A stretch of DNA of 64,000 bases from Lingula anatina (lineage: Eukaryota > Animalia > Brachiopoda), in assembly GCA_051362555.1 (NCBI GenBank), contig CM120645.1:3720001-3784000 (forward strand), written 5' to 3'. Positions 449 to 61,652 of the stretch are shown in pieces. The notes under the pieces are model-generated. The model ran no database searches. It was not told where the DNA came from and saw nothing but the letters and a program-made list of their open reading frames with translations. Numbering within the stretch: position 1 is the stretch's first letter; each line of letters opens with the position of its first letter. The position numbers and the translations under genes are program-made.

Positions 449-3400
449 ATGGCTTACAGACAAGTTGTAGCAGGTGGAGAGAGTCTTCATCTCTTACATA
501 AGCTACAGTTGTCTCCACAATCCAAGACACCAGACACTGTGCTGGAATGGACTAAGCTTGATATAAACAATGTTGGTATAGACAACTTACCAGAGTCCAT
601 TGACAGGTGTGCAAATGTTCAGAATATATCTGCAGTATATAACAGGTTATCTTCTTTACCACAGTCCATATCCAACCTCCCACATCTCACAGTGTTGGAC
701 CTATCCAGCAATGCCTTCAATACATTCCCCATAGCACTGTGTGGCTTGACTAACCTACAGGAACTGTTCCTGTCACACAACCAGATATCTGACATACCAG
801 TGGATATCAGCAGGTTGAAGGTGCTCAGAATATTCTCCCTCTCTAACAATGCCTTTACTACATTCCCCATAGCACTTTGTAGCTTGACTGACCTAAAGGA
901 GCTGTTCCTGTTAAATAACCAGCTATCTGACATACCAGAGGATATCACCAGGTTGAAGGTGCTCAGAATATTCAAGCTCCATAACAATGCCTTCACTACA
1001 TTCCCCATAGCACTGTGTGGTTTGACTAACTTAGTGGTGCTGCACCTGTCAGAAAACCAGCTATCTGACATACCAGTGGATATCACCAGGTTGAAGGTGC
1101 TCAGAATATTCAAGCTCCATAACAATGCCTTCACTACATTCCACACAGCACTGTGTGGTTTGACTAACCTAGAGAAGCTGCACCTGTCATACAACCAGGT
1201 ATCTGACATACCAGGGGATATCACCATGTTGACAAAACTTGAGGGACTTTACCTGTCAGACAATAACATCACTCACCTGCCACCTCAAATAAAGAATATG
1301 GAAAGTCTTAGACGACTAAATGTGATTGGTAATCCTTTGGTACAACCACCTATACATATTGCCGAGAGGGGACTAGGTGCCATCAAGAGGTATTTTGAGG
1401 CATTAACTGTCACCAAGGCAATCCAGTCAAGTAGAATACAGGTCAACTTACTTGGTGAAACAGAAGCAGGAAAAACTAGCATTTCACGCACACTGCAAAA
1501 TGGAAAGTCTACCCTTACAAAGATGGCAGACAGGACAAGAGTGGTGGAGCAGGGATTATGGGAGGCTCATGAAGATGAGACTGACCTGAATATTGGCTTC
1601 AACATCAATGACTTTGGTGGACATGACATCTACAAAATAGGACATCCCATTTTTATTAACAAATGTGGCTTGGTTTTCATCACTTTTGATCTGTCGAAAT
1701 ATGACCGAGAAGACAAGGCTCATTACCAGCTCTACATTGGACACTGGATTGACAAGGTGCAGGCACAGATGCCAGAAATACAAATAGCTCTAATTGGAAC
1801 TCATCTTGATGAGGTAGAAATCCAACATGTAGAAAACATGTGTTCTGCTATAAACAAGCAACATGAAGACCACATAAACAAAAAGAAGCAGTGGTATCTA
1901 GAGCAAAAGGAGAGCATTGAGAAGAGAATAAGAGAAACACCTGAAACCCAAGCATCTCTCCAACAGGCCTATCAAAGCAAATCAGATAAACTGCAGACCT
2001 TGTATGATCAAATGAAACCCATCCACAAGGATATTTTCAGAGTCAGTTCAAAAACCTGTGAAGGAATTAAAGATCTGCGAGACTACCTCATTTCTTCTGC
2101 CAGGAGAAATGCTGAAGTTTTGCCAGGTATGTGGGTGGAAGCAGCCAAGAATATATGCACCAAGAAAATTGAAGGCTCTGAAAACACACTTGACTGGGAG
2201 ATGATTGAAGACCTCATTCTGCAGAATGCACCTACATCTTGGAAAGAGGAGAATTCAGAGGAAGAAACAGAAAAAATGATATGTGACATCTTAAGTTTTC
2301 TTGCTCATCGTGGAGACATCATTTGGTTTGATAGATGTCCCTCACTGATGAAAGTAGTTTTCCATAAGCAAGAGGTTCTAGTTAATGTTCTCAAGGCAGT
2401 CCTGAGTCATGATCAAGAGGCCGTATCAGAAAAGCTACAGAAATCCATGAAGATTACTAAAACCAAAGCAAATGCCATGCATGGAGACATTTTCACCAGA
2501 GGGATCATATCCAAAGAGGCTATGGGCTGCCTGTGTGAGCCTTTCAAATTATCAAGTACTGAAGTCAATGTCATGATAGAAATGATGCAGAAACTGGAGC
2601 TGTGCTATCAAGTCCAGGAAGATGAATCCCTCCCATCCAATACCTCATACCACTTTCCATGGCTCCTCACTGAAGAAAGGCAACCTGAGCTAGACACCAA
2701 ATGGCCCAGCAAGGTGGCCCCAGACACCACACAACTTACCCTGCAGGTTCTCTTTCCATACAAATGTCCAGATGGCTTATATGAGAAATTTTCTGTTCGT
2801 CAGCACAAGCATCTTGGACTTATGAAGACCATGCGAATGGACTGGAAGGATGGGGTGTATGCAGAACTTAAGGGATGTAAAATGCAGGTGACACGAGGGC
2901 TACACCAGCCAAGTCCTGATGCAGTCAGCCAAGTCCCAGACTGGTTTATCAGCATTGCTGTCCGTGGATCACATCTCTCAGACATGTGGGATGCTCTCAC
3001 ACAAGGCCACAGTGACCTCATGGACATCATTAAAGAGGACTGGCCTGGGCTGTCATACGACAAATATCTGATGTGTCCCCACTGTGTGAATGAGGACAGT
3101 GAGCACCCAACCCTCTTCCCTGGGGAAATACTTGAAATAACCCTGGGGACAGCTTCCAAACCAAGACAGGTATTATGTGTCAATACTGGTGTCAACATTC
3201 CTGCAGACCTGGTCTACCCACCACACCTGGTCATGAGCTGGCAGGAAGGTAAGCACAGCAGTATAATGGCATTAGTGTAATGATTCACTGTTTCTCTTTG
3301 TTATATATGTATTTTTATTCTCAAAAATGTCTAACTAACCTGATCACCTGACCATGACATCCAAAAATTGTGCTAACAGGAAGGAGGATTTTATATTTAT

Positions 3401-3868
3401 CTTATTTGGATATCTTTTACAGGTCTCTTATCAGCAAATGACAGTTATTACCCGCTATTCAAAGGACTTGTTTCCATTTTAAGAAACGGAATAATAATTA
3501 TCCACAACATTTGCTATTCATACATCATGAAAGGACTGAATGTAATTTTTAACATTCTGTAATGTGTGGCAACATTATTTTCAGTTCTGAATGAAGTAAA
3601 ACCAAAGCTATGTGAAAACATCACAGTTCATGTTCTCCTGGACATGTTGGATCTTTTCCTCCAAGAAGGCATTATAATTGACCATGAATATAAATGGGTG
3701 AAGCCAGAGCTCCCTAAACACCAAACCTCAACTACCAGGGTGGTATGTCCAGAGAAAACTGCAGTATTCTTGGACATTCTTAAAACTAAAGGGGGAAGGA
3801 CATATGATTTATTAAGGGGATGCTTCATTGAAAATGGACAAAGTGAGCTTGCTACCCTCCTCAAATAG
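449..3868 (+). CDS. MFHAS1-like: ROCO protein copy 1: LRR(~12)-ROC GTPase-COR-CARD; predicted join(449..3248,3585..3868), ~1027 aa
   Basis: 943-aa ORF with 23-aa LRRs, P-loop GETEAGKTS, DFGG (G3), GTHLD (ROCO-type G4), VSSKT (G5), COR-like region and CPHC motif. Donor GAAG|GTAAG after 3248 is phase-1 compatible with acceptor ttttcag|TTCTG at 3585. Confidence 0.9.
3585..3868 (+). CDS. Terminal CARD/death-fold exon (type B) of ROCO copy 1
   Basis: VLNEVKPKLCENITV..LLDMLDLFLQEGII..EYKWV...EKTAVFLDILKTKG..YDLLRGCF.ENGQSELATLLK fits the six-helix CARD pattern; acceptor context is conserved in all copies. Confidence 0.8.
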
Positions 3869-5208: not shown

Positions 5209-5290
5209 CTGTGGTAGAATATCCTTGCCATTCCTATCCTCTGTTTCTCTCCTCCATATAACAAATCCTTCCAGTCACTCTCAAAGCAAC
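5209..5290 (-). pseudogene. ABCD2: ABCD1/2-like exon-8 equivalent (ABC signature), acceptor lost
   Basis: [25 protein letters not shown]|gtacaa; the LSGG signature is mutated to LYGG. Confidence 0.85.
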
Positions 5291-5686
5291 TCAGCAAATT
5301 TAAATCAAAACAAAAATACAGCATGGCCGTTCTGGGGAAAAATTCATGTGTCAGACACAGACAGAATGGTGACAACACAGACAGACAGACTAATCAGAAT
5401 ATACAGTGTAGTGTCTATTTATAAAAACAACATATCTTTGAAAATATGCCCCAATCACGCTGATTTTTAAATTCTACCTTCTTCACTTAGCATGCTCACT
5501 GAAAGTACATGGTGTTGGGGACAACAGACGCAGTTGACAGCTTTATGTACATGTACAGACGCATATTTGTCTGTGCATTAAAAGTGTTACTTTCCAAAGT
5601 ATTGAAAAAATAGTTTACTTAAAAAGGAAACATTTTTTTGTTTTATTTTGTGTATGTGTGCGTGTACATGCGCACATATTTTTTTT

Positions 5687-7903: not shown

Positions 7904-8116
7904 TCACAGCTCTGACCCCTCTGGCTGTATCAGATGACCATGGTCCAGTAACACAGAGTCCTCTCCTAAAATGGAGCACAGTTCCTGTAGCCTCTGCTGC
8001 ATCTTAGGTATGCCAGCTAGCTGAGCCTCCAGCCCCTGTTTCTCCTCATTGTGTCCAGCTCCTCTAATCTCCAGCCTCCCTCACCATCAAACTGGAGCAA
8101 ATGAGTGTGGAACTTC
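7904..8116 (-). pseudogene. ABCD2: ABCD1/2-like terminal exon (exon 10), frameshifted
   Basis: [22 protein letters not shown] start, but a 19-nt deletion (gagagacaggcgcgtggct) relative to the copy at 35825-36056. Confidence 0.85.
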
Positions 8117-16000: not shown

Positions 16001-17310
16001 AGAAAGGCAACCTGAGCTAGACACCAAATGGCCCAGCAAGGTGGCCCCAGACACCACACAACTTACCCTGCAGGTTCTCTTTCCATACAAATGTCCAGAT
16101 GGCTTATATGAGAAATTTTCTGTTCGTCAGCACAAGCATCTTGGACTTATGAAGACCATGCGAATGGACTGGAAGGATGGGGTGTATGCAGAACTTAAGG
16201 GATGTAAAATGCAGGTGACACGAGGCCTACACCAGCTAAATCCTGATGCAGTCAGCCAAGTCCCAGACTGGTTTATCAGCATTGCTGTCCGTGGATCACA
16301 TCTCTTAGACATGTGGGGTGTTTTCAGACAAGGTCACAATGACCTCATGAACATCATTAAAGAGGACTGGCCTGGGCTGTCATATGACAAATATCTGATG
16401 TGTCCCCACTGTGTGAATGAGGACAGTACACAGCCAACCCTCTTCCCTGGAGAGATACTTGACCTAACCCTGGGGACAGCTTCCAAACCAAGACAGGAGA
16501 CATGTGTCAACACTGGTGTCTCCATTCCTGCAGACCTGGTCTACCCACCACACCTGGTCATGAGCTGGCAGGAAGGTAAACACAGCAGTATAATGGCATT
16601 GTTTTCTTTATTTTGTTTCTCTTTGCTCAACAATTTTGTCAAACTGCCCTCACCTAAACATGACATCCAAAAAGCATACAAACAAGAAGGTTTTACATTC
16701 ATTTGTTTTCATTAAGCGCTGCATTTTAGCTATAAAAACATAACCCCAATGATTGTCTTCAGACACTTGGTACTGTATTTTTTAAAAACTGTTCATGTAT
16801 TATCTCCATGTGCTTAGTTAACATGTAAATAACTGTTCTTACAGCAGTACGGATTTTTTCTGTTAAATCTTTTCTATTCTTCTACACTTGCGTCTGCCCA
16901 TGTGTCAAATCCTTATTTTAATATTGAAATCATCCACTAAAATTCAATTTTTACATAATGACAACAGATATTTTATCTGTCATGAATACCATTAAAAAAT
17001 GGCTGTTTTATTGTTTTCAGTTCTGAATAAAGAAAAACCAAGCCTTTGTGAAAAAATCACAGAACCCTGTCTCCTGGACATGTTAAATGAGTTTCTCCAA
17101 GAAGGCATCATCACCCTTCGTGAAGCTGAAATGGTGAGAGCAGAGCCTCCTCAACACCATGACCAAACCTCAACTACCAGGGTGGTATGTCCAGAGAAAA
17201 CTGCTGTCTTCCTGGATATTTTAACCAGGAAACCTGTCAGGGCACATAATACTCTGTGCCGATGTCTTCAGGAACAAGGACAGACTGATCTTCTTAAAAT
17301 GATCCAGTAA
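13083..17310 (+). CDS. MFHAS1-like: ROCO protein copy 2: LRR(~22)-ROC-COR-CARD; predicted join(13083..16575,17021..17310), ~1260 aa; alternative last exon 20344..20627
   Basis: 1210-aa ORF with the same ROC motifs; donor GAAG|GTAAA after 16575; phase-1 acceptors at 17021 and 20344. Confidence 0.9.
17021..17310 (+). CDS. CARD exon type A (ROCO copy 2)
   Basis: VLNKEKPSLCEKITEPCLLDMLNEFLQEGII...EKTAVFLDILTRKPVRAHNTLCRCLQEQGQTDLLKMIQ*; acceptor ttttcag. Confidence 0.8.
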
Positions 17311-17334
17311 GGGGACTTTCCTAGACTGATAATC

Positions 17335-17712: not shown

Positions 17713-17905
17713 CAAGCATTTGAAGGTTTGACCAATTTACTGCAGTTAGTTCTGAACAATAATGACATCAAGTCCATCCCTACCACCTCCTTCAGCGGCC
17801 TGCCGTCTTCCTTGACATACTCAAAACCAGAGGAGATAAGGCATTTGTTTTATTGAGGAAATGTCTCACTGAAAATGGACAAAGTGAGCTTGTTTCCCTT
17901 TTAAT
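17713..17905 (+). pseudogene. Foreign 'typical'-class LRR fragment fused out of frame to a second CARD C-terminal remnant
   Basis: QAFEGLTNLLQLVLNNNDIKSIPTTSFSGLP, then in another frame AVFLDILKTRGDKAFVLLRKCLTENGQSELVSLL; paralog at ~47062-47255. Confidence 0.65.
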
Positions 17906-20343: not shown

Positions 20344-20627
20344 TTCTGAATGAAGTAAAACCAAAGCTTTGTGAAAACATCACAGTTCCTGGTCTCCTGG
20401 ATATGTTGGATGTTTTCCTCCAAGAAGGCATTATCACTGACCCAGAATATGAATGGGTGAAGCCAGAGCTCCCTCAACACCAAACCTCTACTACCAGGGT
20501 GGTATGTCCAGAGAAAACTGCAGTATTCTTATATATTCTCAAAACTAAAGGGAACAATGTATTTGATTTATTAAGGGAATGCCACAGTAAAAATGGACAA
20601 AGTGAGGTTGCTACCCTCCTTAAATAG
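20344..20627 (+). CDS. CARD exon type B (alternative terminal exon of ROCO copy 2)
   Basis: Open 284-nt frame, same acceptor and phase as 3585..3868. Confidence 0.7.
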
Positions 20628-24542: not shown

Positions 24543-24576
<34 letters not shown>

Positions 24577-27871: not shown

Positions 27872-30800
27872 ATGGCTTACAGACAAGTAACAGCAGGTAC
27901 AGAGATACTTGATCTCTTACATGGGCTACAGTTGTCTCCACAGTCCAAGACACCAGACACTGTGCTGAAATGGACTCGGCTTGATATATACTGTGCTGGT
28001 ATAGACAACCTACCAGAGCCCATTGACAGGTGTAGAAATGTTAAGAAGATATCTGCAAGGAAGAACAGGTTATCTTCTTTACCACAGTCCATATCCAACC
28101 TGCAACACATCAAAACATTGATCCTATCAAGCAATGCCTTCACTACATTCCCCATAGCACTGTGTGCCTTGGCTAAACTCAAGGTGCTGGACCTGGGTGA
28201 CAACCAGCTATCTGACATACCAGTGGATATCACCAGGTTGAAGGTGCTCAGAATATTTCGGCTCAAAAACAATGCCTTCACTACATTCCCCATAGCACTG
28301 TGTGGCTTGAATAACCTAAAGGAGCTTTACCTAGGTGGTAACCAGATATCTGACATACCAGTAGATATCACCAGGGTGAAGAGCCTTAGAATATTCCAGC
28401 TCCGTAACAATACCTTTGCTACATTCCCCATAGCACTGTGTGGCTTGACTAACCTAGAGAAGCTGAACCTGTCACACAACAAGCTATCTGACATACCAGT
28501 GGATATCAGCAGGTTGAAGGTGCTCAGAATATTCTACCTCTCTAACAATGCCTTCACTACATTCCCCATAGCACTGTGTGGCTTGACTGACCTAAAAGAG
28601 CTGTTCCTGTTAAACAACTGGATATCTGACATACCAGTGGATATCAGTAGGTTGAAAAAACTTGAGACACTTAACCTGTCAGGCAATAACATCACTCACC
28701 TACCACCTCAAATAAAGAATATGGAGAGTCTTAGACAACTAGATGTGGGAGGTAATCCTCTGGTACAACCGCCTAAAGATACTGCCAACAGGGGATTAGA
28801 TGCCATCAAGAGGTATTTTGAGGCATTAACTGACACCAAGGCAATCCAGTCAAGTAGAATACAGGTCAACTTACTTGGTGAAACAGAAGCAGGAAAAACT
28901 AGCATTTCACGTACATTGCAGCTTGGGCAGCCAACACTCACTAAGGTGGCAGACAGAACGAGAGTAGTAGAACAAGGAACATGGGAGACTGGCGAAGACA
29001 TTGGCTTCAATATCAATGACTTTGGTGGTCATGATGTCTACAAAATAGGACATCCCATTTTTATTTCCAAATGTGGCTTGGTATTCATCACTTTTGATCT
29101 GTCTAAATATAAGCCAGAAAACAAGGCTCATTACCAACTCTACATTGGGCACTGGATTGACAAGGTGCAGGCACAGATGCCAGGGATACAAATAGCTCTA
29201 ATTGGAACTCATGTTGATGAGGTAGAAATCCATCATGTAGAAAGCAAGTGTTTTGCAATAAAGAAGCAACATGAAAACCACATATACAAAAAGAAGCAGT
29301 GGTATCAAGTGCAAAAGGAGAAAATTGAGAAGAGAATGAGAGAAACGTCTAAAACCCAAGCATCTCTCCGCCAGGCCTACCAAAGCAAAGCAGTTAAAAT
29401 GCAGACCTTGTATGATAAAATGAAACCCATCCACAAGCACATTTTAAAAGTGAGTTCAAAAACCTGTGAAGGAGTTAAAGAGCTGAGAGACTACCTCATT
29501 TCTTTTGCCAGGACAAATGCTGAAGTTTTGCCAGGTATGTGGGTGGAAGCAGCCAAGAATATCTGTACCAAGAAAATTGAAGGCTCTGAAAACACACTTG
29601 GCTGGGAGATGATTGAAGACCTCATTCTGCAGAATGCTTCTACATCATGGAAAGAGAAGTCAAAGGAAGAAACAGAAAGAATGATATGTGACATCTTAAG
29701 TTTCCTTGCTCATCGTGGAGACATCATTTGGTTTGACAGATGTCCCACACTGATGAAAGTAGTTTTCCACAAGCAAGAGGTTCTAGTGAATGTTCTCAAG
29801 GCAGTCTTCAGTCATGATCAAGAGGCAGTATCTCAGAAGCTCCAGAAATCCATAAAGATTACTGAAACCAAAGCAAATACCATACATGAAGACATTTTCA
29901 TCAGAGGCATCATATCCAAAGAAGCTATGAGCTGCCTGTGTGAGCCTTTCAAATTGTCAAGCACTGAAGTTAATGTCATGATTGAAATGATGCAGAAACT
30001 GGAGCTGTGCTATCAAGTCCAGGAACATGAATCCCTCCCATACAATACCTCATTCCACTTTCCATGGCTCCTCACTGAAGAAAGGCAACCAGAGCTAGAC
30101 ACCAAATGGCCCAGCAAGGTTCCCCCAGATACCACTCAACTGACCCTGCAGGTTCTCTTTCCATACAAATGTCCAGATGGCCTCTATGAGAAAATTTCTG
30201 TTCGTCAGCACAAGCATCTTGGACTTATGAAGACCATGCGAATGGACTGGAAGGATGGGGTGTATGCAGAACTTGAGGGATGCAAAATGCAGCTGACACG
30301 AGGGCTACACCAGCCAAATTCTGATGCAGTCAGCCAAGTCCCAGACTGGGTTATCAGCGTTGCTGTCCGTGGATCACATCTCTCAGACATGTGGAGTGTT
30401 CTCAAACAAGGTAACAGAGACCTCATGAACATTATTAAAGAGGACTGGCCTGGACTGTCTTATGAGAAATATCTGGTGTGTCCTCACTGTGTGAGTGAGG
30501 AAATTGAGCACCCAACCCTTTTCCCTGGAGAGATACTTGACCTAACCCTTGGGGCGACCTCCAAACCAAGACAGGTGCCATGTATCAACACTGGTGTCTC
30601 CATTCCATCAGACTTGGTCTACCCACGAAGCTGGCAGGAGGGTAAGCTCAATACTATTCAGTGGTCCACTGCTTCTCCTTCTTATGTACAACTTTATTCT
30701 CAAAAATGTTGTAAAACTACCCTCACCTAAATATGACAGAGAAAAAGGTGGTTACAGTAAGAAGGATTTTATGATGTTTATTTTATTGGTGATCTCTCAC

Positions 30801-31208
30801 ATGTGCCTGTCTGTCAAAGAGTTCACTCAGATCTACTCATTGTATTAGCTGGCTTGGTCCAACCTTGCTAGGCATTCTTGCTAAAGTGCAATCAGTTGAA
30901 GCAACTTAATCAGCAAATGATTGTTAATTACCCCCTTGATGCTTAAGGAGGCGTGTTAGTCTATTAAGCTGATTCCACTGATTGCCCTTTAGTGAAAATA
31001 CCCATCAGAGTTGGACAAACCCAGGTAGTATGATGTGTGAATCTGAATGTAGTCAAAGGCCTTGTTTTAATTTAAGAAATTGAATAAGTAATCATCCACA
31101 AAAACTGTTATTAGTACATCAAGACAGGACTGAGTGAAATTTTTTACATTCTGTAATGTGTGGACAACATTATTTTCAGTTCTGGATGAAGTAAAACCAA
31201 AGCTTTGA
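27872..31208 (+). CDS. MFHAS1-like: ROCO protein copy 3: LRR(~12)-ROC-COR with truncated CARD; predicted join(27872..30641,31180..31208)
   Basis: 952-aa ORF; donor GAGG|GTAAG after 30641; the CARD exon has an in-frame TGA at 31206-31208. Confidence 0.85.
30825..31050. mobile_element. Old MITE-like inverted repeat in the COR-CARD intron
   Basis: ~85-bp imperfect arms (cattgtattagctggcttggtccaa...caatcagttgaagcaacttaat / attaagctgattccactgattg...gttggacaaacccaggtagtatgatg); also at 61012-61245. Confidence 0.6.
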
Positions 31209-31463
31209 CAAAATATCACAGTTCCTGGTCTCCTGGACGTGTTGAATCTTTTCCTCCAAGAAGGCATTATCACTGACCATGAATTTGAATGGGTGAAGCC
31301 AGAGCTCCCTCCACACCAAACCTCAGCTACCAGGGTGGTATGTCCAGAGGAAACTGCAGTATTCTTGGACATTCTCAAAACTAAAGGGAAAAGGGCATTT
31401 GATTTATTAAGGGAATGCTTCATTGCAAATGGACAAAGTGAGCTTGCTAACCTTCTTAAATAG
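31180..31463 (+). pseudogene. CARD exon type B with premature stop (TGT>TGA, 10th codon)
   Basis: AAG CTT TGA CAA versus AAG CT(T/A) TGT GAA in paralogs; the rest of the frame is open to 31463. Confidence 0.8.
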
Positions 31464-39000: not shown

Positions 39001-39061
39001 CATTCAATTAATTTTACCTGTGAACATAAACATATAGAGCAGTGACACTTTCTACTGCTCC

Positions 39062-42000
39062 ATGGCTTACAGACAAGAAGTGCAGGAAAAAAAACTTGAT
39101 CTCTTGCATAGGCTACAGTTGTCTCCATGGTTCAAGACACCAGACATTGTGCTGAAATGTACTGAGTTTAATATAGACAATGCTGGTATAGACAACCTAC
39201 CAGAGTCCATTGACAGGTGCACAAATGTTGTGGAGATATCTGCAGGATTTAACAGTTTATTTTCTTTACCACAGTCCATATCCAACCTACCACACCTTAA
39301 AGTGTTGAGCCTATTCCAGAATGCCTTCACTACATTCCCCATAGTACTGTGTGGCCTGACTAACCTAGAGATGCTGAGCCTGAGTTACAACCAGCTATCT
39401 GAAATACCAGTGGAAATCACCAGGTTGAAGTTGCTTAAAATATTCAGGCTCAATAACAATGCCTTCACTACATTCCCAATAGCACTGTGTGGCTTGACTA
39501 ACTTAGAGGAGCTACACCTGAGTGGCAACAAGCTATCAGACATACCAGTGGACATCACCAGGTTGAAGGTGCTAAGAATATTCCGGCTCCATAACAATGC
39601 CTTCACTAACTTCCCCATAGCACTGTGTGGCTTGACTAACCTAGAAGAGATGTGCCTGACTCGTAACCAGTTACCTGACATAACAGTGGATATCATCAGG
39701 ATGGAGGCCCTCAGAATATTCTGGTTCAATTACAATGCCTTCCTCACATTCCCTATAGGACTGTGTGGTTCAACTAACCTAGAGGTGCTGAACCTGTCAC
39801 ACAACCAGCTATCTGACATGCCAGTGGATATCAGCAGGTTGAAAGTGCTCAGAATGTTCTATCTCTCTAACAATGCCTTCACTACATTCCCCATAGCACT
39901 GTGTGGCTTGACTAACCTAGAGGTGCTGGACTTGTCACACAGCAAGATATCTCACATACCAGTGGATATCAGTAGGTTGACAAAACTTAAGACACTTAAT
40001 TTGTCAAACAATAACATCACTCACCTGCCACCACAAATGAAGAATATGGAAAGTCTTAGACAACTACATGTGGATGGTAATCCTCTGGTACAACCACCTA
40101 AACATATTATCAAAAGGGGTCTAGGCGCCATCAAAAGATATTTTGAGGCATTAACTGTCAGTGAGGCAATCCAATCAAGTAGAATACAGGTCAACTTACT
40201 TGGTGAAACAGAAGCAGGAAAAACTAGCATTTCACGTACACTGCAAAATGGAGAGTCTACCCTTACAAAGATGGCAGACAGGACAAGAGTAGTAGAACAA
40301 GGAACATGGGAGACTGACCAAGATATTGGCTTCAATATCAATGACTTTGGTGGACATGATGTTTACAAAATAGGACATCCCATTTTTATCTCCAACTGTG
40401 GCTTGGTTTTCATCACTTTCGATCTGTCTAAATATGACCCAGAAGACAAGGCTCAGTACCAGCTCTACATTGGACACTGGATTGACAAGGTGCAAGCACA
40501 GATGCCAGGGATACAAATAGCTCTTATTGGAACTCATCTTGATGAGGTAGAAATCCAACATATAGAAAACAAGTGTGTTGCAATAAAGAAGCAATATGAA
40601 GACCACATAAACAAAAAGAAGCAGTGGTATCTATTACAAAAGGAGATCATTGAGAAGAGAATAAGAGAAACACCTGATACTGAAGCATCTCTCCGCCAGG
40701 CCTACCAAAGCAAATCAGATAAACTGCAGACCTTGTATGATAAAATGAAACCCATCCACAAGCACATTTTCAGAGTTAGTTCAAAAACATGTGAAGGAAT
40801 TAAAGAGTTGGGAGACTACCTCATTTATTTTGCCAGGATAAATGCCGAAGTTTTGCCAGGTATGTGGTTAGCAGCAGCCAAGAATATCTGCAACAAGAAA
40901 ATTGAAGGCTCTGAAAACACACTTGGCTGGGAGATGATTGAAGACCTCATTCTGCAAAATGCACCTACATCATGGAAAGAGCAGAACACAAAGGAAGAAA
41001 CAGAAAGAATGATATGTGACATCTTAAGTTTCCTTGCTCATCGTGGAGACATCATTTGGTTTGATAAATGTCCCTCACTGATGAAAGTAGTTTTCCACAA
41101 GCAAGAGGTTCTAGTGAATGTTCTGAAGGCAGTCCTCAGTCATGATCAAGAGGCTGTGTCAGAGAAGCTCCAGAAGTCCATGAAGATTACTGAAACCAAA
41201 GCAATTAACATACATGAAGACATCTTCACCAGAGGCATAATTTCCAAAGAAGCTATGAGCTGCCTGTGTGAGCCTTTTAAATTGTCAAGCACTGAAGTTG
41301 ATGTCATGATAGAAATGATGCAGAAACTGGAGCTGTGCTATCAAGTCCAGGAACATGAATCCCTTCCATCCAATACCTCATTCCACTTTCCATGGCTCCT
41401 CACTGAAGAAAGACAATCTGAGCTAGACACCAAATGGCCCAGCAAGGTTCCCCCAGACACCACACAACTTACCCTGCAGGTTCTCTTTCCATACAAATGT
41501 CCAGATGGCTTATATGAGAAATTTTCTGTTCGTCAGCACAAGCATCTTGGACTCATGAAGACCATGCGAATGGACTGGAAGGATGGGGTGTATGCAGAAC
41601 TTGAGGGATGCAAAATGCAGCTGACACGAGGGCAAAACCAGCTAAATCCTGATGCAGTCAGCCAAAACCCAGACTGGGTTATCAGCATTGCTGTCCGTGG
41701 ATCACATCTCTCAGACATGTGGGATGTTCTCACACAAGGCCACAGTGACCTCATGGACATCATTAAAGAGGACTGGCCTGGGCTGTCATATGACAAGTAC
41801 CTGGTGTGTCCCCACTGTGTGAGAGAGGACAGTGAGCATCCAACGCTCTTCCCTGGAGAGATACTTGACCTAACCCTGGGGACAGCTTCCAAACCAAGAC
41901 ATGTGACATGTGTCAATACTGGTGTCTCTATTCCTGCAGACCTGGTCTACCCACCTCACCTGGTCATGAGCTGGCAGGAAGGTAAACACAGCAGTATAAT

Positions 42001-42718
42001 GGCATTGTTCTCTTTCTTTTGTTTCTCTTTGCTCAACAATATTGTCAAACTGCCCTCACCTAAACATGACATCCAAAAAGCGTACAAACAAGAAGGTTTT
42101 ACATTCATCTGTTTTCATTAAGCACTGCATTTTAGCTTTAAAACATAACCCAATGATTGTCTTCCCATAATTGGTACTGTATTTTTTAAAAAATGTTCAT
42201 ATATTATCTCCATGTACTTAGTTAACATGTAAATAACTGTTCTTACAGCAGTAAGGCTTTTTTTCTGTGCAATCTTTTGTATTCTTCTACACTCGCCTCT
42301 GCCCATGTGTCCAATCTTTATTTTAATATTGAAATTATCCACTAAAATTCAATTTTTACATAACAACAACAGATAATTTTTTTTTTGTCATGAATATCAT
42401 TTAAAAGTAGCTGTTTAATTTTTTTCAGTTCTGAATAAAGAAAAACCAAGCCTTTGTGAAAAAATCACAGAACCCTGTCTCCTGGACATGTTAAATGAGT
42501 TCCTCCAAGAAGGCATCATCACCCTTCGTGAAGCTGAAATGGTGAGAGCAGAGCCTCCTCAACACCATGACCAAACCTCAACTACCAGGGTGGTATGTCC
42601 AGAGAAAACTGCTGTCTTCCTGGACATTTTAACCAGGAAACCTGTCAGGGCACATAATACTCTTTGTCGATGTCTTCAGGAACAAGGACAGACTGATCTT
42701 CTTAGATTGATCCAGTAA
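39062..42718 (+). CDS. MFHAS1-like: ROCO protein copy 4: LRR(~14)-ROC-COR-CARD; predicted join(39062..41981,42429..42718); alternative last exon 49608..49891
   Basis: 1019-aa ORF with ROC motifs; donor after 41981; phase-1 acceptors at 42429 and 49608. Confidence 0.9.
42429..42718 (+). CDS. CARD exon type A (ROCO copy 4)
   Basis: Nearly identical to 17021..17310. Confidence 0.8.
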
Positions 42719-45769: not shown

Positions 45770-48700
45770 TTATTCAACAGAGAGGAGTTGTTTCATATCT
45801 TAAAACCTTTAAGTATTTACAAATAAAATAATAATAACACTTATAAACTTTTTTTATCATTTTCTTATTTTCTTTCTTTCATATCACTTTTATCAGTCAC
45901 ATATTGATATGTAACATCAGCCACGTACAATGTAAACATCACACGATCGGGGCTGACTTAAAAACAAATTACAATATGTTGACATACCTTCTTCAGCAGG
46001 ACTGCCTTGTTTCTCAGCTTTCTCATACTTCTTTGCCGCCTGAGATAGCCCCTTCTTGTTAATTAGCTTTCTGTAGCAAGAAAAGTGACATCGTGGTTTG
46101 GCTTCCAAATCGTCGAATCCTTATCTAAATCCGTACTGTACGGATCCACTGAACAGCAGCGGCTTCTCTGCTGCCAAATTTCAGCCATTGTTTCGCTGCG
46201 ACTCTAAAAGTTTCCCAGCGAACACGTGTGATGGTATCTAGAGTCTCTTAATTAGCTACCTTCTTTTATGTGCATGCAACACGAAAGATGAGAATTTGGC
46301 GAAGATTTCGCGTCTCCCTCCTCAGTCTCTTCATTACAGCCGACCATGCTGCTTTGTTTACATGGCATGGCCTGGTGGGAAGGTGACGTGACCCCCTTTC
46401 CGTTGCTTTGATTGGTTAATCTGATCTGAATCTGATTAAAAGGCTCGAACGGCGGGGCTATTCATTTTGATGTTTCGGCATAAATACTACCGCAATTATC
46501 TATATGTTGCCGCACCTCTCGGTTGCCGAATTTATTGTGGATATTCTTTTACTGTTTATCTTAATGCACCGTGAAAATTGTTTGGCCACATCACATATTG
46601 AAGGAAAGAGCTTTTCTTAACGCTTTTATGCATATCAGGTGGGGGACTATAAGGGGACTTTCCTAGACTGATAATCAAACTTTCCTAAATATTCACAGAA
46701 TGAAAGGGGACAGGGCATTTAATTTATCAATGGAATACCTCAAGTATTATGGACAAAGTGAGCTTGTTTCCCTATTTGAATATAGGAAATGCAGTTAAAC
46801 TGACTGTGTGGTGGACTCACCACCTGCAGCAGTCATGTCATGTAGTTGTTTTCTCAAATGTCCAGTAGTCTTCGATGTGCTCAAAAAATGTGACCATTCT
46901 GGCCTGCAATATCTTTTTGATAGTCAAAAAATTCAAATAGTAAATCTTGGTCATTTGAGCTAAGGAACTAGCCATGCACCTACAATTTACTGGTTGACTG
47001 GACGCTTATAATGCATCAGACCAAGAGCCGTTTAATCTATCAGAAGAGAAACGTAAAGCACCAAGCATTTGAAGGTTTGACCAGTTTACTGTGGTTAGTT
47101 CTGAACAATAATCACATCAAGTCCATCTCTACCACCTCCTTCAGTGACCTGCCGTCTTCCTTGACATACTCAAAACCAGAGGAGATAAGGCATTTGTTTT
47201 ATTGAGAAAATGTCTCACTGAAAATGGACAAAGTGAGCTTGTTTCCCTTTTAAGATAGACCCAGTACCTGTGGCAGTCATGTCCTGTAGTTGATGTACCC
47301 AATGTTTATTAATTCCTAATGTAGTGAAACACTTAGGCCTTATTGGCTGCATACATCTAGCTTTTTGAAAAAAAAAAAAAAAAAAAAAACAATGAATCTT
47401 GGCCAGATAGACTAAAGAACTGTTCCTGCAGTAATTCCTGTCCTTAACTGATCTATATAATCCATGAGTGAGATAGAGGACATGAGAGCTGACCATCATC
47501 AATCTACAGACCCCCTTATGTGGAAATAATGGAGCAAGAATGGATGAAGAGTAAACATTAGCAGGGATTATAATGATAGCCGTGGTATGCTACTTGGTGG
47601 GAAGAGGAGCTAGGTGGGAAGAGGAGCGTAGTGGGAAGAGGAGCGTGGTGGGAAGAGGAGTGTGATGGGAAGAGGAGAAAGGCATACAGCTGTACACCTA
47701 CAGGTTAGAACATGTGATATGATAGGCCAATATTGTTTTATAAGATGTTGATGTCCGTCTAGTTTTTTATCAGTAATGGAGGGGGAGGATGGACAGCAGA
47801 ACATGTGATATGATAGCTAGACCATCTTTGTTTTATTAGATGTTGATGTCTGTCCAGTTCTGTATCAGAAATGGAGAGGGAGGGTGGGGGAATACCTTAC
47901 ACTGAGATGCTGCTTAACAAATGTGAAGAGTTATTTTTTATTTGGAATGCACTATGTTGCATTAGATTAAACCTCTTTATATGAACTTATAATACTACCA
48001 CAACAGCTTTAGGTCTTTATTACCAGCGCAATATTTTAGTGTCACACAGAAATGGGCTTTAAGGGTGGAAAACCTATTCTTGTAATTTTGAGCACACAAC
48101 ACAGCTGATGAAGTTTGTTGCTGGATCCTTAAAAAAATGTTATATTGTAATTTCTACAGATGAGACCAATTATAGGTGACTTGATGCCATATGATCCATC
48201 AGATGAGGGATGGGAAAGCTGGAATTCCAACCAGTTCCTGAAGTATCAGGGACATGTGTAACCCGAGTTCCAGTCATACCCTGCCTACAACAAGATGATG
48301 TGGAGGATGGCAATTTAAAACAGTCAGTGCCATAACTTGAGACAAACACCAGCCAGCTGCACAGTCAGGTTTGTACAGTTATATATTTAAAAATTTGTTA
48401 CCCCTTTTTACATTTTCAGAATTGGTAAAAAGTTGTGAAAACAATTTAAGCAAAATGTATCTGGTATATGTTATCTGCCTGAATAAAGACCATACAAACC
48501 TTAGGGTTAAAACTTCAAGTAAGGTATACTCTGGGGTGAGCCATAATCACAGACTGACACCAATTTTATATTATACATCAAACTATAGAAAAAATTACTT
48601 TCATGTTATCCAGTGGAGTTACAACATATTTGTTCTCTTCTTTCCACAGAATACAGTATCAACAGTTTATCTCTGCTAAGCAGTGCATCAGACAGTACTC

Positions 48701-49607: not shown

Positions 49608-49891
49608 TTCTGAATGAAGTAAAACCAAAGCTTTGTGAAAACATCACAGTTCCTGGTCTCCTGGATATGTTGGATGTTTTCCTCGAAGAAGGCATTATCA
49701 CTGACCCAGAATATGAATGGGTGAAGCCAGAGCTCCCTCAACACCAAACCTCTACTACCAGGGTGGTATGTCCAGAGAAAACTGCAGTATTCTTATATAT
49801 TCTCAAAACTAAAGGGAACAATGTATTTGATTTATTAAGGGAATGCCACAGTAAAAATGGACAAAGTGAGGTTGCTACCCTCCTTAAATAG
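49608..49891 (+). CDS. CARD exon type B (alternative terminal exon of ROCO copy 4)
   Basis: Open frame; one residue differs from 20344..20627. Confidence 0.7.
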
Positions 49892-50509: not shown

Positions 50510-51368
50510 CTATCCTCCGTTTCTCTCCTCCAGATAACACATCCTTCCAGTCACTCTCAGCTCCACAGCCTGGAACACAACAACTCTTAATGGATAATGA
50601 ATTAAAATTAATATATATTTTTTAAATTTTCAAATACATTTTGAATATTTCAGACAAAGTGTGATATAACTAGTCTTAATGAAATAAAGTAATAAAGTGG
50701 TTTTAGATTATAAATGATTTAGATTTGCAGATATCATCCCTTAACATAATTTTGAAATGAGATATCCACTAGCGAAGGAGACGGGGATTTGACTTTACTT
50801 AACTCTAAACTCCCAAGCCAATAAAATTAAAACAAGATATAGTTATTATAATTAAATGGAAACATATCAGATGACATGATTAATTAGGATTAAGATGCGT
50901 TACTCCTGTGATGAACATAGATAATGTATATACATATGAAAATAGAAACTGTATCAATCAAAAACTTTACATATTTTCTGCAGATATCTTAGTACCCTCT
51001 TCTCTCTGTATAATATGTTGCAGGTTTACACATCTGAATATATCTTTGAGTGGTGATTTGGGTGGTGGTTTGAGTAGGCGACCATTATACACAGCCACAG
51101 ACCACTTAGAATACAGAACAGGGAGCTCTTACCACAGCCATTACAGCCTGTTACATGTATCAGCAGGTGCATGTTGTGGTCCATCTGGAAATATCATGCT
51201 GAATATGAAAGCAACCTGCCTCTTTACCAAACAAAGCCACTCAGTAAATTTAAGTAAAACAAAAATACAGTATGGCAGTTCTGAGCCCGGGGCGACTTTT
51301 AGAACAGCTAGGGAGCTCTTACCAAAGCCATTGGAGCCTGTCATTAGCAGGTCCATGTTGTGGTCCAT
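50510..51368 (-). pseudogene. ABCD2: ABCD1/2-like exon 8 and exon 6/7 remnants
   Basis: Duplicate of 21246-22104. Confidence 0.75.
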
Positions 51369-53936: not shown

Positions 53937-54168
53937 TCACAGCACTGACCCCTCTGGCTGTATCAGATGACCATGGTCCAGTAACACAGAGTCCTCCCCC
54001 AAAATGGAGCACAACTCCTGTAGCCTCTGCTGCATCTTAGGTATACCTGCCAGCTGAGCCTCCAGTCCCTGCTTCTCCTCATTGAGAGACAGGCGTGTGG
54101 CTGTGTCCAGCTCCTCTAATCTCCAGCCTACCTCACCGTCAAACTGGAGCAAATGAGTGTGGAACTTC
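53937..54168 (-). pseudogene. ABCD2: ABCD1/2-like terminal exon 10 (orphan)
   Basis: Duplicate of 24689-24920; open frame. Confidence 0.85.
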
Positions 54169-57016: not shown

Positions 57017-60000
57017 ATGGCTTACAGACAAGTAGCATGCAAAGAGGAACTTGATCTCTTACATAGGCTACAGTTGTCTCCACTGTCCAAGACACCAGAC
57101 ACTTTGCTGGAAAGGACTGAGCTTGATATAAGCTTTGCTGGTATAGACAACCTACCAGAGTCCATTGACAGGTGTAGAAATGTTAAGAAGATATTTGCAG
57201 GTTTAAACAGGTTATCTTCTTTACCACAGTCCATATCCAACCTCCCACACCTCACAGTGTTGGACCTATACTGCAATGCCTTCACTATATTCCCCATAGA
57301 ACTGTGTGGCTTGACTAACCTAGAGAAGCTGGACCTGGCTAACAACCATATATCTGACATACCAGTGGATATCAGCAGGTTTAAGATACTCAGAATATTC
57401 TCCCTCTTTTACAATGTACCACAGTCCATATCCAACCTGTCACACCTCAGAGTGTTGAAACTAAACAGCAATGCCTTTGCCACATTCCCCATAGCACTGT
57501 GTGGCTTGACTAACCTAGAGAAGCTGGACCTGGCTAACAACCAGCTATCTGACATACCAGTGGATATCACCAGGTTGAAGGTGCTCAGAATATTCAAGCT
57601 CCATCACAATGCCTTCACTGTATTCCCCATAGAACTGTTTGGCTTGACTAACCTAGAGGAGCTGGACCTGGATAACAACCAGCTATCTGCCATACCAGTG
57701 GATATCAGCAGGTTTAAGATGATACTCAGAATATTCTCCCTATTTTACAATGTACCACAGTCCATATCCAACCTGTCACACCTCAGAGTGTTGGAACTAA
57801 ACAGCAATGCCTTTGCCACATTCCCCATAGCACTGTGTGGCTTGACTAACCTAGAGAAGCTGGACCTGGCTAACAACCAGCTATCTGACATACCAGTGGA
57901 TATCAACAGGTTGAAGGTGCTCAGAATATTCAAGCTCCATCACAATGCCTTCACTGTATTCCCCATAGAACTGTTTGGCTTGACTAACCTAGAGGAGCTG
58001 GACCTGGATAACAACCAGCTATCTGCCATACCAGTGGATATCAGCAGGTTTAAGATGATACTCAGAATATTCTCCCTCTTTTACAATGTACCACAGTCCA
58101 TATCCAACCTGTCACACCTCACAGTGTTGAAACTAAACAACAATGCCTTCACTACATTCCCCATAGCACTGTGTGGCTTGACTAACCTAATAGAGCTGGT
58201 CCTGTCAGACAACCAGATATCTGACATACCAGTGGATATCACCAGGTTGAAGGTGCTAAGAATATTCAAGCTCCATCACAATGCCTTCACTGTATTCCCC
58301 ATAGCACTGTGTGGCTTGACTAACCTAATAGAGCTGTATCTGGGTGACAACCAGATATCTTACATACCAGTGGATATCACCAGGTTGAAGGTACTCAGAA
58401 TATTCTCCCTCTCTAAAAATGCCTTCACTGCATTCCCCATAGCACTGTGTGGCTTGACTAACCTAATAGAGCTGTATCTGGGTGACAACCAGATATCTGA
58501 CATACCAGTGGATATCAACAGGTTGAAGGTGCTCAGAATATTCAAGCTCCATAACAATGCCTTCACTGTATTCCCCATAGCACTGTTTGGCTTGACTAAC
58601 CTAAAGGAGCTGAACCTGGATAACAACAAGCTATCTGACATACCAGTGGATATCAGCAGGCTTAAGATACACGGAAAATTCTCCCTCTCTAACAATGCCT
58701 TCACTACATTCCCCATAGCACTGTGTGGCTTGCCTAACCTAAAAGAGCTGTATCTGGGTGACAACCAGATATCTTACATACCAGTGGATATCAGGAGGTT
58801 AACAAAACTTTGGTCACTTGGCCTGTCAGGCAATAAAATCACTCACCTGCCACATCAAATGAAGAATATGGAAAGCCTTCGACTACTACTTGTGGATGAT
58901 AATCCTCTGGTACAACCACCTAAATATACTGCCGAGAGGGGACTAGGTGCCATCAAGAGGTATTTTGAGGCATTAACTGACACCAAGGCAATCCAGTCAA
59001 GTAGAATACAGGTCAACTTACTTGGTGAAACAGAAGCAGGAAAAACTAGCATTTCACGCACACTGCAAAATGGAAAGTCTACTCTTACAAAGACGGCAGA
59101 CAGGACAAGAGTGGTGGAGCAGGGATTATGGGAGGCTCATGAAAGTGAGACTGACCTGAATATTGGCTTCAACATCAATGACTTTGGTGGACATGACGTC
59201 TACAAAATAGGACATCCCATTTTTATTTCCAAATGTGGCTTGGTTTTCATCACTTTCAATCTGTCGAAATATGACCAAGAAGATGAGGCTCATTACAAGC
59301 TCTGCATTGGGCACTGGATTGACAAGGTGCAAGCACAGATGCCAGGGATACAAATAGCTCTAATTGGAACTCATCTTGATGAGGTAGGAGAAACACATGT
59401 AAAACACAAGTGTTCTGCAATAAACAAGCACCATGAAGACCATATAAACAAAAAGAAGCAGTGGTATCAAGCACAACAGGAGAGCATTGAGAAGAGAATA
59501 AGAGAAACACCTAAAACCCAAGCATCTCTCCGCCAGGCCTACCAAAGCAAATCAAATAAACTGCAGACCTTGTATGATCAAATAAAACCCATCCACAAGG
59601 ATATTTTCAGAGTCAGTTCAAAAACCTGTGGAGGAGTTAAAGAACTGCGAGACTACCTCATTTCTTTCGCCAGGAGAAATGCTGAAGTTTTGCCAGGTAT
59701 GTGGGTGGAAGCAGCCAAGAATATCTGCACCAAGAAAATTGAAGGCTCTGAAAACACACTTGGCTGGGAGATGATTAAAGGCCTCATTCTGCAGAATGCA
59801 CCTACATCATGGAAAGAGAAGAACTCAAAGGAAGAAACAGAAAGAATGATATGTGACATCTTAAGTTTCCTTGCTCATCGTGGAGACATCATTTGGTTTG
59901 ATAGATGTCCCTCACTGATGAAAGTAGTTTTCCACAAGCAAGAGGTTTTAGTGAATGTTCTCAAGGTTGTCCTCAGTCATGATCAAGAGGTCGTATCAGA

Positions 60001-61652
60001 GAAGCTCCATAAGTCCATAAAGATTACTGAAACCAAAGCAAATACCATACATGAAGACATCTTCATCAGAGGCATCATATCCAAAGAAGCTATGAGCTGC
60101 CTGTGTGAGCCTTTCAAATTGTCAAGCACTGAAGTTGATGTCATGATAGAAATGATGCAGAAACTGGAGCTGTGCTATCAAGTCCAGGAAGATGAATCCC
60201 TTCCATCTAATACCTCATTCCACTTTCCATGGCTGCTCACTGAAGAAAGGCAACCTGAGCTAGATAACAAATGGCCCAGCAAGGTTCCCCCAGACACCAC
60301 TCAACTGACCCTGCAGGTTCTCTTTCCATACAAATGTCCAGATGGCTTATATGAGAAATTTTCTGTTCGTCAGCACAAGTATCTTGGACTCATGAAGACC
60401 TTGCGAATGGACTGGAAGGATGGGGTGTATGCAGAACTTAAGGGATGTAAAATGCAGCTGACACGGGGGCCACACCAGTCAAATTCTGATGCAGTCAGCC
60501 AAAACCAAGACTGGGTTTTCAGCATTGCTGTCCGTGGATCACATCTCTCAGACATGTGGGGTGTTCTTGAACAAGGTCACCTTGACCTCATGAACATCAT
60601 TGAAGAGGGCTGGCCTGGGCTGTCATATGACAAATATCTGATGTGTCCCCACTGTGTGAGTGAGAACAGTGAGCACCCATACAGTTTCCCTGGAGAGATA
60701 CTTGACCTTACCCTGAAGACAGCTTCCAAACCAAGACAAGTGGCATGTGTCAGCACTGGTGTCTCCATTCCTGCTGGCCTGGTCTACCCACCACACCTGG
60801 TCATGAGCTGGCAGGAAGGTAAGCACAGCAGTATTCTAGCATTAGTGTAATGATTCACTGTTTCTCTTTGTTATATATGTATTTTTATTCTCAAAAATGT
60901 CTAACTAACCTGATCACCTGACCATGACATCCAAAAATTATGCTAACAGGAAGGAGGATTTTATACTTATCTTACTTGGATATCTTTTACAGGTCCCTTT
61001 GGGTCAAAGAGTGCATTCAGATTTACACATTGTATTAGTTGGGTTGGTTCAATTTTGCTGGGCAATCTCGCTAAAGTGCAATCAGTGGAATTAACTTAAT
61101 CAGCAAAGGATTGTTTATTACCCCCAGCTGGTGGATGAGGCATGTCAGACAAATTAAGCTAATTCTACTAATTACCCTTTAGCGAGAAAGTATGCCCAGC
61201 AAAGTAAGACCAACCCAGCAAGTACCATGTGTTAATCTCAATGCTTATTTTCATTTTAAGAAATGGAATAATAATTATCCACAACATTTGCTATTTATAC
61301 ATTATGAAAGGACTGAATGTAATTTTTAACATTCTGTAATGACTAATGTGTAACAACATTATTTTCAGTTCTGAATGAAGTAAAACCAAAGCTATGTGAA
61401 AACATCACAGTCCCTGGTCTCCTGGATATATTGAATGTTTTCCTCCGAGAATGCGTTATCACTGACCATGAATATGAATGGGTGAAGCCAGAGCTCCCAC
61501 AACACCAAGCCACAACTACCTGGGTGGTATGTCCAGAGAAAACTGCAGTATTCCTGGACATTCTCAAAACTAAAGGAGAAAGGGCATTTGATTTATTGAG
61601 GGAATGCTTCATTGAAAATGGACAAAATGAGCTTGCTACCCTCCTTAAATAG
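57017..61652 (+). CDS. MFHAS1-like: ROCO protein copy 5: LRR(~27)-ROC-COR-CARD; predicted join(57017..60818,61369..61652)
   Basis: 1277-aa ORF with ROC motifs; donor GAAG|GTAAG after 60818; acceptor at 61369. Confidence 0.9.
61012..61245. mobile_element. Old MITE-like inverted repeat in the COR-CARD intron
   Basis: Imperfect inverted arms gcattcagatttacacattg... / ...catgtgttaatctcaatgc. Confidence 0.6.
61369..61652 (+). CDS. CARD exon type B (ROCO copy 5)
   Basis: Open 284-nt phase-1 exon homologous to 3585..3868. Confidence 0.8.

What the first reader, a model, noticed from the sequence alone, without database searches (positions are those of the whole stretch)
449..61652. Tandem array of LRR-ROC-COR-CARD genes: a candidate diversified intracellular immune-receptor system
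Seen: five intact paralogs, each with a variable LRR block, a conserved ROC-COR GTPase and a spliced C-terminal CARD-like exon. Known: ROC-COR is a nucleotide-dependent dimerisation switch; CARDs recruit caspases or adaptors; vertebrate MFHAS1 is single-copy and lacks a CARD; brown-algal ROCO genes with variable LRRs have been proposed as immune receptors. Inference: this is a sensor-switch-effector design parallel to NLRs, with a ROCO GTPase in place of NACHT/NB-ARC and reversed domain order, evolving by birth and death.
Basis: partly seen in the sequence, partly recalled or inferred. Interest (0 to 1): 0.9.

Follow-up and report, generated by a model that had tools for sequence, protein, structure and literature searches.

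The report
Brachiopod ROCO-CARD candidate immune-receptor array
Five neighbouring genes, whose closest relatives are from the lamp shell Lingula, each join a fast-changing repeat surface, an LRRK2-type GTP switch and a cell-death adaptor domain (one gene has a stop in that domain), and they likely act as inside-the-cell pathogen sensors built differently from the classic NLR receptors.

Summary
The array is real. Five tandem genes encode LRR-ROC-COR in one exon and a CARD in a second exon (Pfam above cut-off; fold Z 11.5 to the NLRC4 CARD). Corrections: only four are intact, because gene 3 has a stop in its CARD exon, and there are seven full CARD exons, not five. RNA reads show the GT..AG COR-to-CARD splice, but mostly from paralogs or other individuals. 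The closest relatives are Lingula anatina 'MFHAS1 homolog' proteins (35 of 36 hits; 22 carry a CARD), forming one expanded clade. The new evidence: concave LRR positions evolve under positive selection (omega 3.1-6.1 across the five genes) while ROC-COR is under purifying selection (0.44). Relatives in amphioxus, bivalves and an annelid carry Death, CARD, caspase, OTU, trypsin or GT4 after COR, as NLRs swap effectors. ROCO proteins with death-fold domains (Trichoplax), bacterial LRR-ROC-COR-effector systems and brown-algal ROCO receptors are already published, so this is a new variant of a known kind. Ligand, partner and immune role are untested, and 'activation by dimerisation' is unsafe. This scan noted an LRR-less ROC-COR-CARD gene in another genome.

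The parts
449..3248 (+). Gene 1, coding exon 1: cap + 11 LRR, ROC, COR
   Evidence: ORF, Pfam, donor GTAAGC
3585..3868 (+). Gene 1 CARD exon (type A); spliced model 1027 aa
13083..16575 (+). Gene 2, coding exon 1: cap + 21 LRR, ROC, COR
17021..17310 (+). Gene 2 proximal CARD exon (type B); spliced model 1260 aa
   Evidence: Pfam CARD 37.7 bits; 2 reads in run X8 join 16574 to 17021 with one other letter between
17793..17903 (+). Remnant C-terminal half of a CARD
   Evidence: tblastn; 12 reads join 17214 to 17814 without splice ends, likely paralogs with a mosaic CARD
20344..20627 (+). Second full CARD exon (type A) behind gene 2; orphan or alternative last exon
   Evidence: Pfam CARD 32.2 bits; open frame and acceptor
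27872..30641 (+). Gene 3, coding exon 1: cap + 11 LRR, ROC, COR (open)
31180..31463 (+). Gene 3 CARD exon, broken by in-frame TGA at 31206-31208
   Evidence: almost no read cover there, so the stop could not be checked in RNA
39062..41981 (+). Gene 4, coding exon 1: cap + 13 LRR, ROC, COR
42429..42718 (+). Gene 4 proximal CARD exon (type B); spliced model 1069 aa
   Evidence: tblastn; GT..AG joint in 18 reads, 4 of 4 runs, at 88% likeness
47151..47255 (+). Remnant C-terminal half of a CARD
   Evidence: tblastn
49608..49891 (+). Second full CARD exon (type A) behind gene 4; orphan or alternative last exon
   Evidence: Pfam CARD 32.0 bits; GT..AG joint from the gene 4 donor in 13 reads, 3 of 4 runs, but paralog reads cannot be excluded
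51100..51251 (+). Likely non-coding 5' exon of gene 5 (start approximate); look-alikes lie upstream of genes 3 and 4 and, in part, gene 2
   Evidence: 69 reads join 51240 to 56816 with 16 letters between; homologous stretches at 21637-22036, 33257-33640, 5282-5334
57017..60818 (+). Gene 5, coding exon 1: cap + 26 LRR, ROC, COR
   Evidence: stranded run X5 covers it almost only with first mates on the - strand, which fits sense RNA
61369..61652 (+). Gene 5 CARD exon (type A); spliced model 1361 aa
   Evidence: Pfam CARD 37.3 bits; model pLDDT 82.5; best structural match NLRC4 CARD, Z 11.5, rmsd 2.4, 82 aligned

Best explanation
This is a tandem array of two-exon LRR-ROC-COR-CARD genes, four intact and one with a broken CARD, whose LRR binding face is under positive selection, and the proteins likely work as cytosolic immune sensors. 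Shown: architecture, splicing at family level, CARD fold, intact GTP-binding motifs, positive selection on the concave LRR face, purifying selection on ROC-COR, copy turnover. Inferred: the variable LRR face would bind a fast-evolving foreign molecule or a host protein altered by a pathogen; binding would shift the nucleotide state of ROC and with it the COR-mediated monomer-dimer balance; this would free or cluster the C-terminal CARD, which would recruit a CARD-bearing caspase or adaptor and trigger cell death or inflammatory signalling. By analogy with CtRoco the GDP dimer is more likely the resting state, with GTP loading releasing the CARD. New specificities would arise by gain and loss of 138-bp LRR pairs, point change at the concave positions and unequal exchange between units.
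For: Architecture and CARD: (the top 27 structural rows are CARD domains, CARD-bearing proteins or one designed protein). Splice: 18 GT..AG reads, plus 39 reads with a shorter exon end, join COR to the CARD exon. P-loop, switch I, switch II, G4 and G5 motifs are present in 5 of 5 genes. Selection: six position-matched repeats across the five genes give omega 6.12 at 30 concave codons (p 1.6e-16) against 0.58 at 99 others, and 3.14 (p 0.0006) when that class has its own synonymous rate; internal repeats give 3.8 and 3.5; ROC-COR gives 0.44. Expansion: 35 of 36 hits are Lingula, 22 of the 35 with Pfam CARD; one clade of 39 tips, support 1.0. Effector swapping in relatives: 17 of 25 hand-picked proteins carry Death, CARD, GT4, OTU, caspase or trypsin after COR. 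Precedent: bacterial LRR-AP-GTPase-COR-effector counter-invader systems (PMC8195603, passages); the same kind of concave-face selection in brown-algal ROCOs (PMC11378527, passages). CARD caspases and GSDME are reported in brachiopods from genome screens (PMC11508797, passages).
Against: No ligand, partner, induction or phenotype was shown. Few reads are 99% or more alike to these copies (13 of 3576, 12 of 3294, 16 of 3122, 26 of 2190), so expression of these exact genes is weakly shown. With their own synonymous rate the internal repeats drop to omega 3.5 (p 0.005) and 2.0 (p 0.052); the synonymous rate is also raised at concave codons (0.116 against 0.046), and exchange between copies can inflate omega. 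The five type A CARD exons give omega 0.87, not distinguishable from neutral, and ROC-COR at 0.44 is only moderately constrained. The characterised bacterial ROCO cycles between monomer and dimer, whereas CARD signalling usually needs larger assemblies (my knowledge). Lingula is reported to have true CARD-NACHT-LRR receptors as well, so this family does not fill an NLR gap.
Confidence: 0.62

Rival explanations
1. They are dampeners or decoys, not triggers: the LRR face tracks pathogen effectors or host signalling proteins, and the CARD blocks caspase or NLR assemblies.
For: The characterised bacterial ROCO reaches only a dimer, which may be too small to nucleate a CARD filament. Type A CARDs are weakly constrained (omega 0.87) and CARD halves occur in mixed combinations. 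Human MASL1/MFHAS1 acts in complexes whose toxicity rises on loss of GTP (PMC3995007, abstract).
Against: Relatives put enzymes (caspase, trypsin, OTU, GT4) in the same position, which fits an output slot better than a decoy.
Confidence: 0.14
2. They recognise self versus non-self or symbionts, or act in gamete or tissue compatibility, with the same sensor-switch-CARD logic but no pathogen ligand.
For: Diversifying selection and copy turnover do not name the selecting agent; fungal NLRs act in allorecognition (PMC13449251, start of abstract in the search listing).
Against: The proteins look cytosolic (LRR cap from the first residues, no membrane domain in Pfam), and a family of over 30 paralogs suits many ligands better than one polymorphic locus (inference).
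Confidence: 0.12
3. The array is a largely neutral by-product of an unstable tandem region, and LRR variation comes from slippage and conversion.
For: The units carry passenger DNA (dead ABCD exon copies, orphan CARD exons), gene 3 is broken, expression is low, and non-concave LRR sites are near neutral in some fits (0.6-1.0).
Against: Amino-acid change is focused on the concave face (69% of codon pairs differ, against 20% on the convex side); ROC-COR omega is well below 1 (p 1e-11); all five exons of 2.8-3.8 kb are open; the family spans 28-96% identity with the CARD retained.
Confidence: 0.08

Closest known systems
Lingula anatina RefSeq 'MFHAS1 homolog' proteins (for example P0001, 88% identical over ROC-COR)
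   Same: Same family and same spliced LRR-ROC-COR-CARD product; the domains are already in database annotation.
   Different: Automatic names only; no paper in the searches treats them as a receptor family or tests selection.
Trichoplax adhaerens ROCO repertoire (Civiero 2014, PMC4104024; passages read)
   Same: Expanded animal ROCO set (at least 17) with CARD, death, TIR and LRR domains around ROC-COR.
   Different: Mixed architectures, with no uniform tandem array or selection test in the passages read; the figure itself was not seen.
Prokaryotic LRR-AP-GTPase-COR-effector counter-invader systems (Kaur 2021, PMC8195603; passages and a supplement search)
   Same: Same order: fast-evolving LRR, ROC-type GTPase, COR, variable C-terminal effector including caspase, trypsin and GT4.
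   Different: Described for bacteria and predicted only; no 'COR+CARD' string was found in the 12 of 13 supplementary files searched, though sponge and coral APGTPase+COR+Death proteins are listed.
Brown-algal ROCO candidate immune receptors (Teng 2024, PMC11378527; passages read)
   Same: Expanded LRR-ROC-COR genes with positive selection on concave LRR positions.
   Different: There each LRR is its own exon and is shuffled or alternatively spliced, the genes are mostly dispersed, and no death-fold effector is described; here all LRRs lie in one exon, the genes are tandem and a CARD follows COR.
Animal NLRs of the NLRC type (CARD-NACHT-LRR)
   Same: LRR sensor, nucleotide switch and CARD output; tandem expansion; effector swapping among relatives.
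   Different: ROC-COR GTPase in place of a STAND ATPase, reversed domain order, and no shown ring or filament assembly.
Vertebrate MFHAS1/MASL1
   Same: LRR-ROC-COR core without kinase (PMC6337361, passages).
   Different: No CARD. An unnamed protein that I recognise from memory as vertebrate MFHAS1-like (P0154) groups with amphioxus and hemichordate proteins, not within the Lingula clade.

Membership tests
ROCO proteins | Roc GTPase domain with G1-G5 motifs | tested here: met
   Pfam Roc above cut-off in 5 of 5; motifs present in 5 of 5
ROCO proteins | COR directly after Roc | tested here: met
   COR-B above cut-off in 5 of 5, COR-A matched below cut-off; the model of paralog P0001 matches CtRoco LRR-Roc-COR first, E 3e-30
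ROCO proteins | GTP binding, hydrolysis and nucleotide-dependent monomer-dimer cycle | not testable with these tools
CARD (death-fold) proteins | Six-helix CARD by profile and fold | tested here: met
   Pfam PF00619 above cut-off in 5 of 5 exons scanned; six helices; Z 11.5 to NLRC4 CARD; Foldseek E-values alone were weak, best 0.13
CARD (death-fold) proteins | CARD is part of the same spliced product | tested here: met
   GT..AG joints in 4 of 4 runs and RefSeq paralogs with the same junction; shown at family level, thinly for these exact copies
CARD (death-fold) proteins | Homotypic binding to a caspase or adaptor CARD | not tested
   the CARD search returned only 3 proteins, all family members; no partner candidate was found
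NLRs (STAND receptors) | NACHT or NB-ARC ATPase core | tested here: not met
   no such Pfam match in 5 of 5 large exons at E up to 1; not NLRs, at most NLR-like in function
NLRs (STAND receptors) | N-terminal effector, C-terminal repeats | tested here: not met
   order is LRR-ROC-COR-CARD
Diversifying immune receptors (functional class) | Positive selection on the ligand-binding face | tested here: met
   omega 3.1-6.1 in position-matched repeats; weaker for type B internal repeats with own synonymous rate, 2.0, p 0.052
Diversifying immune receptors (functional class) | Ligand-triggered immune output or induction on challenge | not testable with these tools
   the runs are coded, with no treatment labels
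MFHAS1 orthologs | One-to-one grouping with vertebrate MFHAS1 | tested here: inconclusive
   the Lingula clade is separate from the clade holding the MFHAS1-like P0154, but that label is recalled, the backbone is weakly supported and no outgroup was included
LRRK / DAPK kinases | Protein kinase domain | tested here: not met
   no kinase match in Pfam; the product ends with the CARD

The most novel reading that the evidence does not exclude
Marine invertebrates have a second, overlooked class of intracellular immune receptors, built on an MFHAS1-type ROC-COR GTPase in place of a STAND ATPase. It is expanded separately in brachiopods and amphioxus, present in bivalves and annelids, swaps C-terminal effectors (CARD, Death, caspase, trypsin, OTU, GT4), and in Lingula diversifies both the LRR face and the CARD, by half-domain exchange and possibly by a choice between two CARD last exons.
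Probability: 0.45. Interest if true: 0.85.

Novelty: new variant of a known kind. Interest (0 to 1): 0.62.

Why it matters
If the family senses pathogens, it adds a GTPase-switched receptor class beside NLRs in animal innate immunity and gives the immune links of human LRRK2 and MFHAS1 an evolutionary background. It also makes an open ROCO question directly testable: with a CARD as the only output, cell death or filament formation reports which nucleotide and assembly state of ROC-COR is the active one.

Tried and rejected
No whole genome is held, so no genome-wide copy count was possible; database hits give a lower bound only. No RNA holder was listed by word index; the nine runs came by species label. 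A search with the CARD for partners gave 3 hits, all family members. Foldseek on the CARD model gave no E below 0.001; the wide structural search resolved it. Alternative splicing to the distal CARD exons was considered and left open, because donor ends are near-identical between paralogs. A deleted sixth gene ahead of the orphan CARD at 20344 was looked for and not found: no protein match in 18401-20200. An assembly duplication artefact was rejected: the most similar blocks are 95-97% identical and LRR counts differ. Two papers likely to bear on novelty are not held: Gerdol 2018 on Lingula immunity (only its citation was seen) and a 2008 amphioxus immune-repertoire paper whose DOI I recalled. 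PMC2575513, PMC6321704 and PMC12373286 had no ROC/ROCO mention by term search. One supplementary file of PMC8195603 was not searched and one was cut when stored.
Full report
What is there. The window holds five long + strand frames starting at 449, 13083, 27872, 39062 and 57017. Each scores LRR, Roc and COR-B above the Pfam cut-off, and COR-A below it. Each ends in a conserved donor after the residues WQE, followed 336-550 bases later by a phase-compatible acceptor and a small exon. All 5 small exons scanned score Pfam CARD above cut-off. A model of the gene 5 exon has six helices (pLDDT 82.5) and matches NLRC4, Apaf-1 and caspase-1 CARDs best (Z 11.5, 11.4, 11.1); Foldseek E-values for this small domain were weak. 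A model of the natural spliced paralog P0001 (pLDDT 84.4) matches the LRR-Roc-COR structure of CtRoco, then LRRK1 and LRRK2.

Gene 3's CARD exon has a TGA at 31206-31208, so four genes, not five, are intact. Reads barely cover that place, so an assembly error is not excluded. There are seven full CARD exons of two types. Genes 2 and 4 have a type B exon, then half-CARD remnants, then a second, type A exon. The units are mosaic: genes 1 and 2 are closest in ROC-COR (96.0%), while genes 2 and 4 share the CARD type and an 8 kb downstream block at 96.7%. Sequence at the window's end repeats intergenic unit sequence, so the array likely goes on.

Splicing and expression. Six of nine listed runs were laid. 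At 95% likeness over 12800-31900, 2 reads joined gene 2's exons. Only 13 of 3576, 12 of 3294, 16 of 3122 and 26 of 2190 laid reads were 99% or more alike, so this shows that the family is transcribed and spliced as modelled, not that each copy is. Use of the distal CARD as an alternative last exon is possible but not shown.

Whose genes. With ROC-COR as query, 35 of 36 hits are named Lingula anatina proteins, mostly 'MFHAS1 homolog', the best 88% identical; 22 of the 35 carry a precomputed CARD. The window is therefore very likely from a Lingula brachiopod (inference). A search of cluster representatives gave 872 proteins at E up to 0.001, of which the best 150 were listed. A FastTree tree of 147 ROC-COR cores (of 212 fetched proteins, 49 dropped for short cover and 21 as redundant members, plus the five genes; 559 columns) puts the five genes in one clade of 39 tips with support 1.0: 32 named Lingula proteins and 2 not looked up besides the five. 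The deeper backbone is weak and midpoint-rooted, and holds no protein that I could name as LRRK or DAPK; another Lingula protein with two CARDs (P0096) lies outside the clade.

Selection. Regular repeats alternate between two 23-residue types. Variation peaks at positions 5, 7 and 8; in the model positions 3-5 form the strand, and 2, 3, 5, 7, 8 are the exposed concave-side positions by established LRR structure. With these five positions as one class, a codon model gave omega 3.81 and 3.54 for 29 type A and 30 type B repeats, against 0.61 and 0.89 elsewhere. Because internal repeats shuffle, I repeated the test on six position-matched terminal repeats of the five genes: 6.12 at 30 concave codons (p 1.6e-16) against 0.58 at 99 others. 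Allowing each class its own synonymous rate lowers these to 3.14 (p 0.0006), 3.46 (p 0.005) and 1.96 (p 0.052). Convex-side positions gave 1.24, not significant. ROC-COR gave 0.44 (p 1e-11 below 1), all seven CARD exons 0.56, and the five type A CARDs 0.87, not distinguishable from 1. These are my own simple models without correction for recombination, and the synonymous rate is also raised at concave codons.

Relatives elsewhere. Of 25 hits that I picked mostly for long C-terminal tails, 17 carry an effector after COR: Death 7, GT4 5 (one with OTU), CARD 2, OTU alone 1, caspase 1, trypsin 1; 8 have none. Of 14 more, 3 carry CARD, 4 Death, 1 OTU with GT4, 1 FYVE with MYND and 5 none. Named ones are mostly Branchiostoma, with the bivalve Sinanodonta and the annelid Owenia for Death. 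These are not unbiased frequencies. Among Lingula CARDs, N- and C-terminal halves occur in mixed combinations around a conserved central block, and reads show such mosaics.

How it likely works. The LRR face would bind a changing foreign or altered-self ligand; ROC, whose motifs are intact in 5 of 5 genes, would switch nucleotide state; COR-mediated assembly would change; the CARD would recruit a CARD caspase or adaptor. Every one of these steps is inferred. CtRoco is dimeric with GDP or no nucleotide and monomeric with GTP (PMC5714945, abstract), and loss of GTP raises the toxicity of human MASL1 (PMC3995007, abstract), so the active state cannot be assumed to be the dimer. CARD caspases, GSDME and true NLRCs are reported for brachiopods from genome screens (PMC11508797, passages). 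I put this reading at 0.62, a decoy or dampener role at 0.14, allorecognition or symbiont control at 0.12 and near-neutral amplification at 0.08.

What is known. ROCO genes with CARD and death domains are described in Trichoplax (PMC4104024, passages), TIR-ROCO genes in Aplysia (PMC9334734, passages), LRR-GTPase-COR-effector defence systems in bacteria (PMC8195603, passages) and diversifying ROCO receptor candidates in brown algae (PMC11378527, passages). A review's three-group scheme, in the passages read, has no LRR-ROC-COR-CARD class (PMC6337361). Nine literature searches on the family returned no paper that, by listing or passages read, describes the Lingula family as receptors, but most subscription papers are not held and Gerdol 2018 could not be read. 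This scan earlier noted an LRR-less ROC-COR-CARD gene in another genome (e1-8147976, not checked here) and nothing by sequence.

Verdict. A real, transcribed, positively selected tandem family; a ROCO member, not an NLR member, that likely works like an NLR. New variant of a known kind; interest 0.62.

Noticed in passing
window 7837-8228, 24689-24930, 35825-36070, 53937-54180 (- strand, approximate): Each repeat unit carries a copy of the last coding stretch of an ABCD1/2-like peroxisomal transporter gene (E 4e-25 to human ABCD1); the first copy is frameshifted. It lies inside the likely 5' UTR intron and probably marks a neighbour caught in the first duplication.
   Followed up: partly
window 42716-46650: A 3.9 kb insertion right after gene 4's CARD stop, absent behind gene 2, with 145-bp inverted repeats near its ends (90% alike); 14 reads skip it. 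Looks like a DNA transposon.
   Followed up: partly
window 17720-17810 and 47070-47160: A short decayed LRR-like stretch of a different type lies just ahead of each half-CARD remnant, in another frame.
   Followed up: no
window, within ROC of all five genes (P0001 residues 476-538): A long two-helix hairpin is inserted between the G4 and G5 motifs in the model; it could be an extra assembly surface.
   Followed up: no
window, end of COR in all five genes: An invariant CPHC motif may be part of a metal site next to the CARD.
   Followed up: no
window 31698-31900 and 45570-45740: A short, highly transcribed interspersed repeat draws most reads in both lays.
   Followed up: no
window 8717-9603: A tandem repeat of about 140-bp period in the spacer between genes 1 and 2.
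   Followed up: no
proteins P0051, P0057, P0068, P0072, P0046 (Branchiostoma): Amphioxus LRR-ROC-COR proteins end in GT4 glycosyltransferase, OTU, caspase or trypsin domains; this effector-swapping set may deserve its own study.
   Followed up: partly
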